A stretch of 64,000 nt of DNA from Promethearchaeota archaeon. Lineage in GTDB: Archaea > Asgardarchaeota > Lokiarchaeia > Sigyniarchaeales > SOKP01. This document shows, in pieces, positions 1,338-32,436 of this stretch (position 1 is the first letter of the stretch; every line of letters begins with the position of its first letter). The stretch is taken from assembly GCA_029838195.1 (NCBI GenBank), contig JALGVJ010000014.1:32796-96795 (forward strand), in the 5' to 3' direction. The notes beneath the pieces were generated by a model. The model was not told the DNA's origin, made no database searches, and was given only the letters and a program-made list of their open reading frames with translations. A program made the translations under genes and the position numbers.

Positions 1338-1985
1338 GGAAACTTTTTCTAAACTTAATAATGCCATTTCTTCACATATTAAGTCCAATAATACTTTTTC
1401 TGCTATTTCAGGTTCCGAGTAGAGGGTATTCAAGGATCCCTGTTTTATTCCATGGGATTCCAGAATGATTTTAATTTGCTCCTTATTAAATTTATAGAAA
1501 TTTTTAATTTTTTCTAATTTATTGCTTGTTAAGCTTTCAAATTTCACATCACATTCTTTAGTCTTAAATTGTTCTTCTACTTCTTTCATGATTTTTTCAC
1601 AATTATTTTCTGAGGAGATGATGCAGCAAGGAATTCTTTTTTTTAATAATAGTTCATTAGTAACGCCAAAATACTTGAGAGCATTAATAATTTGCCGATT
1701 AGCGGATAAATAGAGGAGGAATTCAATATTTTTAGATTGAGAGATATTAGTGTTATTAGCAAAAGCTTTTTGAACAAAATAAATAGCAGAATAAACATGA
1801 TCTTCATTTAAAATGTATTCGTCATTGAAAAGTTGGATGACAACCTGATTATTTTTTTTTTGAATGGAATCAATAACTTTAAAAGCGGAATCCAAGTCAA
1901 GATTACTCTTTTGAAGATCTAATTGGCACAATCCTACAAAATATAATAGTTCTAAATCTTCAATATAAAATTCTTCTACAATCAT
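1329..1985 (-). CDS. cgi121: KEOPS complex subunit Cgi121
   Basis: IQLFN, NISQSKNIEFLLYLSANRQIINALKYFGV and C-terminal EEMALL. Confidence 0.85.
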   Translation of the reverse strand: MIVEEFYIEDLELLYFVGLCQLDLQKSNLDLDSAFKVIDSIQKKNNQVVIQLFNDEYILNEDHVYSAIYFVQKAFANNTNISQSKNIEFLLYLSANRQIINALKYFGVTNELLLKKRIPCCIISSENNCEKIMKEVEEQFKTKECDVKFESLTSNKLEKIKNFYKFNKEQIKIILESHGIKQGSLNTLYSEPEIAEKVLLDLICEEMALLSLEKVSLE

Positions 1986-12776: not shown

Positions 12777-12886
12777 TGGGCCGGAGGAGGATCGAACTCC
12801 TGACCTTCGCGGTGTATTCGCGAAGAGAAAAATGAACATCTGTCATTCTCTTTAGCGCGACATCATACCCACTAGACTACCGGCCC
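12777..12886 (-). tRNA. tRNA-Val(TAC) with 37-nt intron at non-canonical position 33/34 (intron 12817..12853)
   Basis: Acceptor GGGCCGG/CCGGCCC-A, anticodon stem TCGCG/CGCGA, spliced loop CT-TAC-AC, T loop TTCGATC; strict BHB (central helix CGCG/CGCG, bulges CT^A and AA^T). Confidence 0.93.
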
Positions 12887-13895: not shown

Positions 13896-14002
13896 GCAGA
13901 CGTAGCCTAGCTGGTAAGACGCCGGCCTTGAGTGCGCATAGGAGAGACCCATGGAAAGCCGGTGCGCGCAAGCGCTCGGGGGTTCGAATCCCTCCGTCTG
14001 CG
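13896..14002 (+). tRNA. tRNA-Ser(TGA) with 24-nt intron at 37/38 (13933..13956)
   Basis: GCAGACG/CGTCTGC-G, CCGGC-CTTGAG..A-GCCGG, long variable arm, GGGGG-TTCGAAT-CCCTC. Confidence 0.88.
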
Positions 14003-14159: not shown

Positions 14160-14258
14160 GGGCTATTGGCGCAGGCAGGTAGCGCAGCAGGCTCTTAAGA
14201 GTTTTTAAATCTTGGGGTCACCTGACGGTCGGGGGTTCGAATCCCTCATAGCCCGCCA
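14160..14258 (+). tRNA. tRNA-Lys(CTT) with 22-nt intron at 37/38 (14198..14219), CCA encoded
   Basis: GGGCTAT/ATAGCCC-G-CCA, loop CT-CTT-A^A; BHB with CTCT/GGGG helix and bulges TA^A and TC^A. Confidence 0.92.
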
Positions 14259-25923: not shown

Positions 25924-27586
25924 TTAAATCAATTTTTTTGAAACATAAGGACCATCTTTTTGATATCCTTGGTTATAAAACCATTGTTTAACGCCTAATC
26001 CACTAATTACAGCTATTTTTTTTAAACCAAATTCTTCTTTTGAAATTTTTTCTGCTTGTTTTAATAATGTTTTTCCGAGACCTTTGTGTTGGATTTGACC
26101 TTGTTCGCGTGGCGGGGCACCCCAAGGAACTAACATGCCAACGATCTTGATTTCTCGCACGATAGAAGTGTTGCCATCATTTAATTCCTTTCTATGTGCT
26201 TTTTCAGACGGTATTCTCAATCTTAAATAGCCTAATAAGCACGTTCTTTTAATGTCTTCATGAGAGAGAAAAATTTCTTTACCTTCTGAGGCATCATACT
26301 CGTAGCTTAATAACTTAATTTCATTTAAAAGCGCAGCATTGTCTTGATATTTAGGGGTAAGATATCCTAATTCTCTACACCTAATACAACGGCATGAAGC
26401 ATTTTTTTCTTTTAATTTCTCATGGATTAACTGTCTTAAGTTGCTTTTTTTACAGCCCGCTTGAATTAAATAGGCAGGGATATCTCGCATTATTCTCTGA
26501 ATTCTAATATAAGGAGGGAGAGTTTTTTTCACAGACGCTAATAGATCTATTAATTTTTCTTCCGAATAAGGCACATATTTTCCTTTTTTCCACCAAGAAT
26601 ATAACTCAGTTCCTTGAATCACTAAAGTAGGATAGATTTTTAACATATCAGGTCTATAATTAGGATCACTAAATAGTGTTTGGAACATCTCAAGATCTTT
26701 CTGAAGCGAAGAGCCAGGCAAATTGGGCATTACATGAAGATTTACTTTGAATCCAGCATCTTTAGCTATTCGAATTGCTTCAATAGAATCGGCAGTAGAA
26801 TGGCCTCTTTTTATTAATTTATAAATATCATCATAAACGGTTTGCACGCCGATTTCTACTCTTGTCGTACCATAATGAAGCATTAAATCAACATGTTCTT
26901 CCTTGCAGTAATCCGGTCTTGTTTCAATTGTCAATCCAACTAATCTTTTACGTGAACGTTCCGCTTTTTTTTTTGCTTCCTCTAATGAAGTCGTATTTTC
27001 CCCGATTATTCCTTCTAAAGCCCCTTTAACAAAATTTTCCTGATATGAGTGATCTGTCGATAAGAAGGTCCCTCCCATTACGATGAGCTCAATTTTTTAT
27101 GGTGATCCAGGGCATGTCCCGAATCAAGTCCACATCATGACCGATGGCGTCTAAATCAGAAATTCGAGAAAGAACTTGTTCCTTAGGGTCATAATTACAA
27201 TAAATCGACCTCATGGCTGCCGGTTCTCTTCCCGTATATGATTTAGCAACTTTTTCTCCAGGTTGGGAGTGGACACCCGGACAATAAACACATTCACCCG
27301 GACATAGCAAGGGTTTTGTCATGATTGCGATGACCGTTACACCCGAAAGCGTTCTCGTTGAGCGTCTTTTCAGTAATTTTCGTAAAATTTTTTTTTCTTC
27401 TTCAGACGCATGACTCAAGATGGTAGCATTTTTGATGACTTTTGGATAGTGATACTTTTTACCAATCTTACCCTTGAGATTAGTGATTTTGCTTTTAGAA
27501 AAATTGGGTTTCTTAATTAAAACTTCAATTATTTCCCGTGCTATTTTATTTTCCAAATTTAAACTATTATTATCTTTTACATCCAT
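25924..27586 (-). CDS. elp3: tRNA U34 acetyltransferase Elp3 (radical SAM + GNAT), two exons: join(27586..27128, 27096..25924), 543 aa
   Basis: RTLSGV..IAIMTKP, CPGECVYCPG, KSYTGREPAAMR in exon 1; MGGTF, TIETRPD, RVEIGVQ, KIYPTLV, QHKGLG in exon 2; removing 31 nt gives GHDVD-KIELIVMGGTF. Confidence 0.92.
27097..27127 (-). other. Predicted 31-nt BHB-type intron in elp3 mRNA
   Basis: Central helix GTGG/CCAT, bulges AC^T and AA^A, inner helix TGATTC/GGATCA plus GGG/CCC; excision restores the frame. Confidence 0.85.
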
Positions 27587-31737: not shown

Positions 31738-32436
31738 TCATAAATAATCGGAGATTTTACGATTATAGAGCTCTTCATCTAATAATTTCTTGATCGTCCT
31801 CCAACTTTTCCTCGCAAAACTAGGAATTTTTTTGTGAATTCGAATATAATTTCTTAAAAATTCAATCGTTTTAGCATCTGAGGGATATCCCGAACCAATT
31901 GGGCCATATTTTTTTTTTAATTCGTCAATTAAATAATCTCGCATTTCTTTAGCTAAAATAGATGCTGCAGAAACAATAGGAAAGAGATCGTCTGCTTTAT
32001 GTTTAGAAACAAGTTCCTTGGGACGGAAATTTAAAGTGTTTAATATTGATTGCCCAAATCTCTCCTCATTCACGTCAGCAGCGTCAATATAAATAATATC
32101 CGGTTTTAATTCATTAATAATGGATTTTATCTTGAGTTCCTCAAGTTGATTTAATGAAAGCTTATTTTCATATCGAGCATCAATTTCTTTAGGTGAAACG
32201 ATTGAAAAAGCATGCGAATGGCAGTTGATTTTTAATATTTCTAAAAAACCTTGTCGTTTTTTTTTTGTTAATTTTTTTGAATCTTTAATCTCAAGTTCAT
32301 ATAAAAAGTCCAATTTGGACTTTAGAAAACAAATTCCACAGATGACCAGAGGACCTATAACGGAGCCTTTTGGGGCCAGATTCTAACTGAATCTTGCTCT
32401 CCCGGCCTCATCAATTCCGCATACTATCTCCGTCAT
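31738..32436 (-). CDS. rnhB: Ribonuclease HII, two exons: join(32436..32399, 32368..31738), 222 aa
   Basis: Exon 1 MTEIVCGIDEAG is missed by the ORF track; the spliced product reads GIDEAGRGSVIGPLV; downstream KDSKKL, KAD...VSAASILAK, GSGYPSD, RKSW. Confidence 0.92.
32369..32398 (-). other. Predicted 30-nt BHB-type intron in rnhB mRNA (contains in-frame TAG)
   Basis: Bulges AG^A and AA^A, central helix GGG/CCC (+C.A), inner helix GC/GC + AGATTC/GAATCT; excision restores DEAGRG. Confidence 0.83.

What the first reader, a model, noticed from the sequence alone, without database searches (positions are those of the whole stretch)
27097..27127. tRNA-type (BHB) intron in the elp3 protein-coding gene
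Seen (minus strand): GAT GTG GAC^TTGATTCGGGACATGCCCTGGATCACCATAA^AAA ATT GAG. The 31-nt insert shifts the frame to a TGA, but folds with 3-nt bulges (ACT, AAA) around a 4-bp helix GTGG/CCAT, with a strong inner helix and a weak outer helix. Cutting after the second nucleotide of each bulge, the established EndA rule, gives GHDVD-KIELIVMGGTF and a full 543-aa Elp3. Known: archaeal mRNA introns are documented mainly for crenarchaeal cbf5. Inference: Elp3 expression depends on EndA/RtcB splicing, coupling U34 modification to tRNA-splicing capacity.
Basis: partly seen in the sequence, partly recalled or inferred. Interest (0 to 1): 0.93.

Follow-up and report, generated by a model that had tools for sequence, protein, structure and literature searches.

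The report
tRNA-type mini-intron in Asgard elp3
The only gene for the tRNA-modifying enzyme Elp3 in this Asgard (Promethearchaeota) archaeon is interrupted by a 31-base insert shaped like an archaeal tRNA intron, and comparison with relatives indicates that the tRNA-splicing enzymes must cut it out of the mRNA, which the papers I could search document inside a coding sequence for only one archaeal gene (cbf5).

Summary
On the minus strand, a 31-nt insert (27097-27127) splits an otherwise intact, single-copy elp3.

- **Exact boundaries.** Removing exactly these 31 nt gives a 543-aa Elp3 that aligns with solved Elp3 structures without a gap (…GHDVD|KIELIV…).
- **Fold.** The insert forms a bulge-helix-bulge core: GUGG/CCAU between bulges AC|U and AA|A, plus a 9-bp inner helix. 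At a fixed position this geometry has a chance frequency of 8e-6 in this genome.
- **Relatives.** Sixteen further alleles (3+ genera, several metagenomes) carry a 31-nt insert at the same codon boundary. The core never varies. In the inner helix, 7 of 9 pairs show changes on both sides.
- **Selection.** Both exons are under strong purifying selection (dN/dS about 0.1, dS saturated).
- **Polymorphism.** An allele 98% identical in exon 2 lacks exactly the 31 nt.
- **Enzymes.** The genome encodes an (alpha-beta)2-type EndA, and RtcB lies in the same window.

No RNA data were available, so splicing itself is inferred.

The intron is patchy: 5 of 116 genomes of the family that gave an elp3 match, none found outside the family, and absent from the congener.

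This scan has already reported BHB mRNA introns in other genes of this genome, and an Elp3/RNase HII pair in another genome. I found no published report for Asgard archaea.

The parts
27128..27586 (-). elp3 exon 1 (153 codons, ATG at 27586; ELP3_N domain and the radical-SAM Cys cluster CPGECVYCPG)
   Evidence: ORF list; Pfam ELP3_N; aligns to 6ia8 up to D133; only copy in the genome
27097..27127 (-). 31-nt BHB-type intron
   Evidence: Sequence; fold; 31 nt at the same codon boundary in 17 alleles (alignment A2); pair counts; precisely absent from a 98%-identical allele
25924..27096 (-). elp3 exon 2 (390 codons plus stop; rest of the radical-SAM domain, Radical_SAM_C, acetyltransferase domain)
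   Evidence: ORF; Pfam; aligns to 6ia8/6iad from K134 to the end, E 1e-114; only copy
27130..27133 (-). 5' strand of the central 4-bp helix H (GUGG, exon 1: the Val codon GUG plus G of Asp)
   Evidence: Pairs with CCAU 27099-27102; invariant in 17/17 intron-bearing alleles. GTG is used in only 3 of 19 intron-less relatives read
27099..27102 (-). 3' strand of the central helix H (CCAU, intron)
27127..27129 (-). Bulge 1 (A C | U); predicted 5' cut between 27128 and 27127
   Evidence: Fold; the cut after the second bulge nucleotide is the boundary required by the protein alignment; rule as stated in PMC2738675
27096..27098 (-). Bulge 2 (A A | A); predicted 3' cut between 27097 and 27096
   Evidence: Same as bulge 1. 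In DZ-type alleles it is an exact 3-nt bulge between H and an 11-bp outer helix
27103..27126 (-). Inner helix h' (27118-27126 with 27103-27111, 9 bp) and 6-nt loop (27112-27117)
   Evidence: Across 17 alleles, 90% of cells pair, 7 of 9 pairs have changes on both sides, and 0/500 shuffles reach the covariation score or the percentage of cells paired (4/500 reach the count of pairs changed on both sides)
27167..27177 (-). Candidate 5' strand of a long-range outer helix h (exon 1, 40-50 nt upstream of the 5' cut); weak in this genome (7 of 11 pairs, run of 5)
   Evidence: It is 10-11 of 11 pairs in the six DZ-type alleles counted. Intron-bearing alleles average 9.6 pairs, intron-less ones 6.3. 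No covariation
27085..27095 (-). Candidate 3' strand of the outer helix h (first nucleotides of exon 2 after bulge 2)
60583..61890 (+). RtcB RNA ligase gene (the enzyme expected to join the exons)
   Evidence: PF01139 match, 553 bits, full profile

Best explanation
The 31 nt at 27097-27127 (minus strand) are an archaeal bulge-helix-bulge (tRNA-type) intron inside the elp3 coding sequence of a Promethearchaeota (Asgard) archaeon.

Proposed mechanism:
1. In the pre-mRNA, exon nucleotides GUGG pair with intron CCAU to form the 4-bp central helix.
2. On one side lie the bulge AC|U and a 9-bp intron hairpin. On the other lie the bulge AA|A and a weak, long-range outer helix. This is a relaxed hBHBh' / HBh'-type motif.
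3. The genome's heterotetramer-type splicing endonuclease (a catalytic alpha and a His-less beta subunit) cuts after the second nucleotide of each bulge.
4. RtcB joins the exons (…GUGGAC|AAAAUU…) and probably circularises the 31-mer.
5. Only the spliced mRNA encodes the 543-aa Elp3.

Shown here: the insert, its exact boundaries, the conserved fold with compensatory changes, selection on both exons, a presence/absence polymorphism at exactly these boundaries, and the enzyme genes.

Inferred: cleavage, ligation and translation of the spliced form.

The intron is most likely a tolerated, sporadically inherited or recombination-spread element rather than a regulator.
For: 1. **Exact colinearity.** Removing exactly 31 nt restores a gap-free alignment with solved Elp3 structures and with about 110 uninterrupted orthologues.
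2. **Geometry predicts the boundaries.** The cuts predicted from the BHB geometry are the boundaries required by the protein. The chance frequency of this geometry at a fixed site is 8e-6.
3. **Conserved length and core.** 17 distinct alleles all have a 31-nt insert at this codon boundary: G000, two congeners at 97% and 88% aa identity, AMARA_1S, TEKIR_6S, DZ3M.111, DZ2S.179 and 10 metagenome, ENA or Logan contigs. The core GUGGAY…CCAUAA|A is invariant.
4. **Covariation.** In the inner helix 90% of cells pair and 7 of 9 pairs change on both sides. None of 500 shuffles reaches the covariation score or the paired percentage, and slid controls pair at 29-41%. The 88% congener differs from G000 at 6 intron positions: 3 in the loop and 3 in the stem, all three keeping a pair.
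5. **Selection on both exons.** Both exons are open in every intron-bearing allele. dN/dS is 0.05-0.22 with synonymous sites saturated. The six codons between the intron and the first Met of exon 2 (KIELIV/I) vary only synonymously or conservatively, so they are translated in frame from upstream.
6. **Exon constraint specific to intron-bearing alleles.** In the 15 codons before the intron, synonymous-codon identity is 0.75 between G000 and other intron-bearing alleles against 0.37 with intron-less ones. Background across the other windows is roughly 0.3-0.65.
7. **Precise polymorphism.** L077 (intron-bearing) and L086 (intron-less) are 98.1% identical over 1357 nt of exon 2, and L086 lacks exactly the 31 nt.
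8. **Single copy.** elp3 is single-copy in a 96.6%-complete genome.
9. **Enzymes.** EndA alpha (best PDB match the A. pernix catalytic subunit 3P1Z_B, aligned without gaps across the crenarchaeal-loop region) and a His-less beta subunit are present. RtcB is present. Three intron-containing tRNA genes lie in the same window.
10. **Other genes of this genome.** RNase HII and a DUF1512 gene show the same kind of insert.
Against: - No RNA evidence: no RNA run holds the locus, and no near-identical full-length protein that could come from a spliced cDNA was found among 5.8 billion proteins.
- The folding energy of a 71-nt window is not exceptional (z = -0.74).
- The central helix never varies, so it gives no covariation.
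- The outer helix is weak in G000 and shows no compensatory change.
- On a short alignment RNAalifold preferred other partners for GUGG and CCAU.
- The alleles are related, so covariation counts overstate independent events.
- The genome bin has 7.9% estimated contamination.
Confidence: 0.85

Rival explanations
1. Split gene without splicing. The two ORFs are translated separately (an N fragment ending in the insert and a C fragment starting at the Met of MGGTF) and assemble into an active Elp3.
For: An in-frame ATG lies 7 codons into exon 2, and public annotation calls the C half from it (P0001, P0002 and others). Split genes are known in some archaea (own knowledge).
Against: This does not explain the constant 31-nt length, the invariant BHB core, the compensatory changes in the hairpin, or the synonymous constraint on exon 1. 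Nor does it explain the protein-level conservation of the six codons upstream of that ATG. The read-through tails differ completely between alleles. The break lies inside the radical-SAM barrel.
Confidence: 0.05
2. Translational recoding. The ribosome bypasses or frameshifts across the 31 nt, as in the 50-nt hop of phage T4 gene 60.
For: A stable hairpin directly follows the take-off position.
Against: There is no matching take-off and landing codon (GAC or GAT before the insert, AAA or AAG after it). The conserved features are those of a BHB motif rather than a bypass element. Earlier cbf5 cases were likewise first mistaken for frameshifting (PMC2738675).
Confidence: 0.03
3. Broken gene or artefact. 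The insert is a recent disabling insertion (pseudogene) or an assembly error.
For: The gene is called as two ORFs, and the bin has 7.9% estimated contamination.
Against: Contigs from two independent studies carry the insert. 17 diverged alleles keep it with both exons intact and dN/dS about 0.1 at saturated dS. The genome has no second elp3.
Confidence: 0.02
4. The intron is spliced and also regulates: Elp3 output is tuned by EndA/RtcB capacity, coupling wobble-U34 modification to tRNA splicing.
For: Elp3 would depend on the enzymes that mature its own substrates. tRNA genes with introns and rtcB lie in the same window.
Against: The intron is missing from 111 of 116 family genomes with an elp3 match, including the congener, and from all genomes sampled outside the family. 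The gene tree needs at least 5 gains or losses. Similar inserts sit in unrelated genes such as RNase HII and DUF1512.
Confidence: 0.05

Closest known systems
BHB intron in the cbf5 (pseudouridine synthase) pre-mRNA of Crenarchaeota (Watanabe 2002; Yoshinari 2006; Yokobori 2009, PMC2738675)
   Same: A short intron inside a coding sequence. The motif is BHB-like and often relaxed, with cuts between the second and third nucleotide of each bulge that coincide with the exon borders. It is associated with a hetero-oligomeric EndA. Its distribution is patchy, with inferred gains and losses.
   Different: Different host gene (elp3) and different phylum (Promethearchaeota/Asgard). The length is constant at 31 nt. 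The outer helix is long-range, with about 33 nt looped out. Splicing of cbf5 was confirmed by cDNA; here it is not.
Archaeal tRNA and rRNA BHB introns processed by EndA and RtcB (Marck and Grosjean 2003; PMC5829648)
   Same: Same 3-4-3 bulge-helix-bulge core, cut positions and enzymes. Asgard archaea are reported to have (alpha-beta)2 EndA with the L1 loop that allows relaxed motifs, and this genome has alpha and beta subunits.
   Different: The substrate is an mRNA, so half of the motif must be built from codons. This leaves a synonymous-site footprint in exon 1.
46-nt BHB intron in the 5' UTR of Haloferax volcanii HVO_1309 (PMC7714728)
   Same: An mRNA substrate of the splicing endonuclease.
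   Different: That intron lies in the untranslated leader and does not interrupt the reading frame. It was shown experimentally by circRNA-seq and in vitro cleavage.
Unconventional splicing of HAC1/XBP1 mRNA in eukaryotes (own knowledge)
   Same: A small intron (26 nt in XBP1, 252 nt in yeast HAC1) is removed from a coding mRNA by an endonuclease that leaves 2',3'-cyclic phosphate ends, and a tRNA ligase rejoins the exons (RtcB in animals). Removal changes the reading frame.
   Different: The endonuclease is Ire1, which is not a Sen/EndA homologue; it cuts stem-loops rather than a BHB; and it is a regulated stress response. There is no evidence of homology.

Membership tests
Archaeal BHB (tRNA-type) intron in a protein-coding mRNA | [quoted passage not shown] | tested here: met
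   GUGG/CCAU with bulges ACU and AAA; core invariant in 17 alleles
Archaeal BHB (tRNA-type) intron in a protein-coding mRNA | Flanking helices h' (inner) and h (outer) | tested here: inconclusive
   h' is met: 9 bp, with 7 of 9 pairs covarying. h is only 7 of 11 pairs in G000. It is long-range (about 33 nt looped out), reaches 10-11 of 11 pairs in DZ-type alleles, and shows no covariation. The motif is therefore relaxed (HBh'-like).
Archaeal BHB (tRNA-type) intron in a protein-coding mRNA | Cuts after the second nucleotide of each bulge give the correct mature sequence | tested here: met
   The predicted cuts equal the boundaries required by the PDB alignments, by intron-less orthologues and by a 98%-identical intron-less allele
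Archaeal BHB (tRNA-type) intron in a protein-coding mRNA | Host encodes a splicing endonuclease able to cut relaxed motifs, and an RNA ligase | tested here: met
   EndA alpha with the Y/H/K context, and a His-less beta. The best PDB match is the A. pernix alpha subunit, with the loop region aligned without gaps. RtcB is present. Enzyme activity on relaxed motifs was not tested.
Archaeal BHB (tRNA-type) intron in a protein-coding mRNA | Spliced RNA (exon-exon junction) and excised, circular intron observed | not testable with these tools
   No RNA run holds the locus; no candidate cDNA-derived protein was found
Elp3 (radical SAM / acetyltransferase tRNA U34 modification enzyme) | ELP3_N, radical-SAM, Radical_SAM_C and C-terminal acetyltransferase domains in one chain, colinear with solved Elp3 | tested here: met
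   Pfam. 6ia8, 6iad and 6qk7 align end to end over both exons. Exon 1 carries the Cys cluster and exon 2 the QHKGLG motif.

The most novel reading that the evidence does not exclude
The elp3 intron is one member of a population of about 30-nt BHB mini-introns that sit in many protein-coding genes of Loki-type Asgard archaea and share boundary features (…GGAC|N … CCAUAA|A in elp3 and in a DUF1512 gene). On this reading they move between alleles by recombination together with a short exon flank. Cutting and rejoining of mRNAs by the tRNA-splicing machinery would then be a routine step of gene expression in the closest archaeal relatives of eukaryotes.
Probability: 0.5. Interest if true: 0.9.

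Novelty: new member of a known kind. Interest (0 to 1): 0.75.

Why it matters
In the papers I could search, splicing of an archaeal coding sequence by the tRNA endonuclease is confirmed only for cbf5 of Crenarchaeota (PMC2738675; PMC7714728 still says so in 2020). I found no report for Asgard archaea.

A conserved and selected BHB intron in elp3 has three consequences:
- It extends endonuclease-dependent mRNA splicing to the archaeal lineage closest to eukaryotes.
- It shows that current annotation splits such genes into two ORFs; public records call only the C half as Elp3.
- It gives a compact, well-defined substrate of about 170 nt for testing Asgard EndA and RtcB in vitro.

The near-identical intron-bearing and intron-less alleles, with a patch of divergent flank between them, also offer a way to study how such introns are gained and lost.

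Tried and rejected
- **RNA evidence.** No RNA holder was listed for the locus. The four runs laid were DNA contigs only, so expression and splicing could not be examined.
- **Spliced cDNA among proteins.** A search of 5.8 billion proteins found no full-length protein closer than 74% to G000's exon 2, so no candidate cDNA product.
- **Other elp3 introns in the phylum.** In a 301-genome sample, double matches outside the family were contig breaks or, in G277, a plain frameshift.
- **Wider DNA pattern scans.** Scans of genome and metagenome collections returned only this family plus chance hits in bacteria and one Woesearchaeota record.
- **Repeat or mobile element.** The 31-mer has no second copy in the genome at up to 6 mismatches.
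- **Genome-wide census of BHB mRNA introns.** A strict scan gave 1354 candidates and a relaxed one 629, with no length peak. Most are false positives at gene borders or in junk frames, so I give no count. The strict scan recovers elp3 and an E2-like gene but misses the relaxed RNase HII intron.
- **Adjacent outer helix.** A conserved outer helix directly next to bulge 2 in G000 was not found; only the long-range candidate remains.
- **P0052/L078.** This looked like another split allele but is an intron-less gene cut by a contig end.

Full report
**1. The observation**

On the minus strand the sequence reads …GGT CAT GAT GTG GAC, then 31 nt (27127 down to 27097), then AAA ATT GAG CTC ATC GTA ATG GGA GGG ACC TTC. 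The ORF list shows two consecutive same-strand frames. One is 27089-27586 (165 aa, ending at a TGA one codon past the insert). The other is open from 27096 down to 25924.

Pfam places ELP3_N in the first frame and Radical_SAM plus Radical_SAM_C in the second. Against solved structures, the first half aligns to Methanocaldococcus infernus Elp3 (6ia8) up to D133 of …VGHPTD. The second half aligns from K134 (KIELII MGGTF…) to the last residue, with E = 1e-114. Exactly 31 nt therefore have to disappear, with no residue gained or lost.

**2. The fold**

The minimum-free-energy structure of 71 nt contains (U)GUGG/CCAU(A), a 3-nt bulge ACU and a 9-bp hairpin. Its energy alone is not exceptional (z = -0.74).

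The geometry is that of an archaeal bulge-helix-bulge motif:
- The exon nucleotides GUGG (27133-27130) pair with the intron nucleotides CCAU (27102-27099).
- Bulge 1 is A C | U (27129-27127).
- Bulge 2 is A A | A (27098-27096).

Cutting after the second nucleotide of each bulge is the rule stated for cbf5 introns in PMC2738675. It removes exactly 27127-27097.

The protein alignment fixes the boundaries independently, so the right chance estimate is the frequency of this geometry at a given site. For length 31, 71 of 9.02 million positions of this genome have all 13 pairs, which is 8e-6.

**3. The organism and its enzymes**

The window is C23:32796-96795 of a 4.5-Mb, 94-contig genome with 33.5% G+C. 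It is estimated to be 96.6% complete with 7.9% contamination. Relatives found with the intron pattern are titled Promethearchaeota archaeon, and the DNA occurs in hydrothermal-vent metagenomes.

The genome has one elp3 only. The relevant enzymes are:
- A 202-aa EndA catalytic subunit. Its best structural relative by sequence is the alpha subunit of the Aeropyrum pernix heterotetramer (3P1Z_B), aligned without gaps through the region of the crenarchaeal loop.
- A 199-aa paralogue that lacks the catalytic His, that is, a beta subunit.
- RtcB, which lies in the same window at 60583-61890.

PMC5829648 reports (alpha-beta)2 EndA with the L1 loop for Asgard archaea and links that loop to cleavage of relaxed motifs. 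Three tRNA genes in the window carry inserts of 24-41 nt in the anticodon arm.

**4. Relatives**

- Of 135 genomes of the same family, 116 gave an elp3 match. Most of these had an uninterrupted frame of about 540-570 aa, and a few were cut by contig ends.
- Five (G000, G006, G049, G084, G094; three genera) had a frame that closes just upstream of KIEL. Each of these has a 31-nt insert at the identical codon boundary.
- The other genome of G000's own genus (G001) has none.
- DNA pattern scans added seven metagenome contigs. Truncated Elp3 gene calls in the protein collection led to five more alleles, including two close relatives of G000 with 97% and 88% aa identity.
- In a 301-genome sample of the phylum, no interruption was found outside this family.

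**5. Structure conservation**

The 17 distinct alleles align without gaps (A2). All inserts are 31 nt. GUGGAY before the insert and CCAUAA|A at its end are invariant.

Counted on the stated structure:

| Helix | Cells paired | Variation |
|---|---|---|
| Central helix | 100% | never varies |
| Inner helix | 90% | 7 of 9 pairs change on both sides (G-C/A-U, U-A/C-G, C-G/G-C and others) |
| Outer helix (candidate) | 81% | no compensatory change |

None of 500 shuffles reaches the observed covariation score or the paired percentage. Sliding one strand drops pairing to 29-41%.

The 88% congener differs from G000 at six intron positions. Three are in the loop and three in the stem, and each stem change keeps a pair.

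With 75 nt of upstream flank, the unconstrained fold of most alleles contains the BHB core. In seven alleles it also shows an 11-bp (10-bp in two of them) helix between the first nucleotides of exon 2 and exon-1 nucleotides -50 to -40. This leaves AAA as an exact 3-nt bulge, with about 33 nt looped out on the other strand. In G000 this helix is weak (7 of 11 pairs). Overall the motif is best described as relaxed.

**6. Is the gene alive?**

- Both exons are open in every intron-bearing allele.
- Between G000 and the others, dN/dS is 0.08-0.17 in both exons. Synonymous sites are at or near saturation (dS about 1.4-3.4). The intron has thus persisted through long divergence in a gene under purifying selection.
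- The six codons between the intron and the first Met of exon 2 change only synonymously or conservatively. This argues that they are translated from upstream, against a separately translated C fragment.
- Exon 1 carries a footprint. In the 15 codons before the intron, synonymous-codon identity is 0.75 between G000 and other intron-bearing alleles but 0.37 with intron-less ones. Other windows range from roughly 0.3 to 0.65.
- The Val codon in helix H is GTG in 17 of 17 intron-bearing alleles, against 3 of 19 intron-less relatives read.

**7. Gain, loss or transfer**

On a tree of exon-2 proteins the intron-bearing genes are scattered among intron-less ones. G000 pairs with the intron-less G001, and well-supported branches force at least five changes.

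One pair is especially telling. L077 (intron-bearing) and L086 (intron-less, 542-aa gene call) are 98.1% identical over 1357 nt of exon 2, and L086 lacks exactly the 31 nt. Their differences cluster around the site:

| Region relative to the intron | Divergence |
|---|---|
| -101 to +45 | about 13%, all spaced by multiples of three |
| Rest of exon 2 | about 2% |
| Further upstream in exon 1 | about 6% |

This pattern fits replacement of a short tract by recombination with a divergent allele, either bringing the intron in or removing it. It also fits rapid synonymous readjustment after gain or loss. I cannot separate the two.

**8. Rivals**

- A pseudogene or assembly error is excluded by sections 4-6 and by independent DNA contigs.
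- Separate translation of two fragments, or ribosomal bypass, cannot be excluded without RNA or protein data. Neither explains the conserved length, the BHB core, the covariation or the exon footprint.

**9. Context**

The same window holds a second such insert. It is 30 nt long (32369-32398, minus strand), lies in RNase HII between GIDEAGR and GSVIGPL, and has a central helix of three pairs plus a C.A mismatch. Exon 2 matches the Pfam profile from position 9.

My strict genome scan recovered elp3. The relaxed scan turned up a 31-nt insert in a DUF1512 gene (C70:22132-22162) that ends in the same CCAUAA|A. G000 and G001 are interrupted there, while other relatives have a frame about 12 to 40 aa longer. 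I did not obtain a reliable genome-wide count.

Earlier notes of this scan list BHB-type inserts in TFE, dnaG, pyrG, an E2, a MoxR ATPase and other genes of this same genome. They also list an Elp3/RNase HII pair in another genome. These are leads that I only partly tested.

**10. Literature**

The searches found cbf5 as the only confirmed coding-sequence case (PMC2738675) and a 5'-UTR intron in Haloferax (PMC7714728). I found no paper on BHB introns in Asgard protein-coding genes or in elp3. A 2026 preprint treats Asgard tRNA introns only.

**Verdict**

This is a real, conserved BHB-type intron in elp3. It is very probably removed by EndA and RtcB, but RNA-level proof is missing. It is a new member, in a new gene and a new phylum, of a kind known from cbf5.

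Noticed in passing
window 32369-32398 (minus strand): A second BHB-like mRNA intron: a 30-nt insert in RNase HII between GIDEAGR and GSVIGPL. Its central helix is GGG/CCC plus a C.A mismatch, with a 9-position inner helix carrying one mismatch. Exon 2 matches Pfam RNase_HII from profile position 9.
   Followed up: partly
G000:C70:22132-22162 (L081:233-263): A 31-nt insert in a DUF1512 membrane-protein gene with ends like those of elp3 (…GGAC|A … CCATAA|AAA). G000 and its congener G001 have the frame closed there, while other relatives have a frame about 12-40 aa longer. Exon 2 starts at profile position 21.
   Followed up: partly
G000:C72:37243-37273 (minus strand): The strict scan also flags a 31-nt hairpin insert in an E2-like gene (…FPPNYPFQPP | …WHPNI). 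The exact phase looks off by a little.
   Followed up: no
window 12777-12886 (-), 13896-14002 (+), 14160-14255 (+): Three tRNA genes within 1.5 kb, each with a 24-41-nt insert in the anticodon arm by Rfam. ARAGORN found only one of them and could not name it.
   Followed up: partly
L033 (G000:C53, locus 1492-1812, minus strand): A 106-aa fragment nearly identical to part of the EndA beta subunit lies on another contig. It could be a duplicated piece, a strain variant or bin contamination.
   Followed up: no
L077 versus L086: Alleles that are 98% identical, one with and one without the intron, show a patch of about 150 nt (-101 to +45) with about 13% purely third-position divergence centred on the intron site.
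   Followed up: partly
L041, L038, L055 (exon 1, about -45 to -26 from the intron): In AMARA-type alleles the exon-1 stretch AAAUCUC-GAAUUA-GAGAUUU forms a perfect 7-bp hairpin, where DZ-type alleles instead use these bases for the long-range outer helix.
   Followed up: no
G100:C139:10305-11471 and G277:C18:25533-27102: Two intron-less elp3 genes in relatives have other defects: one in-frame TGA (G100) and one frameshift near residue 331 (G277).
   Followed up: no
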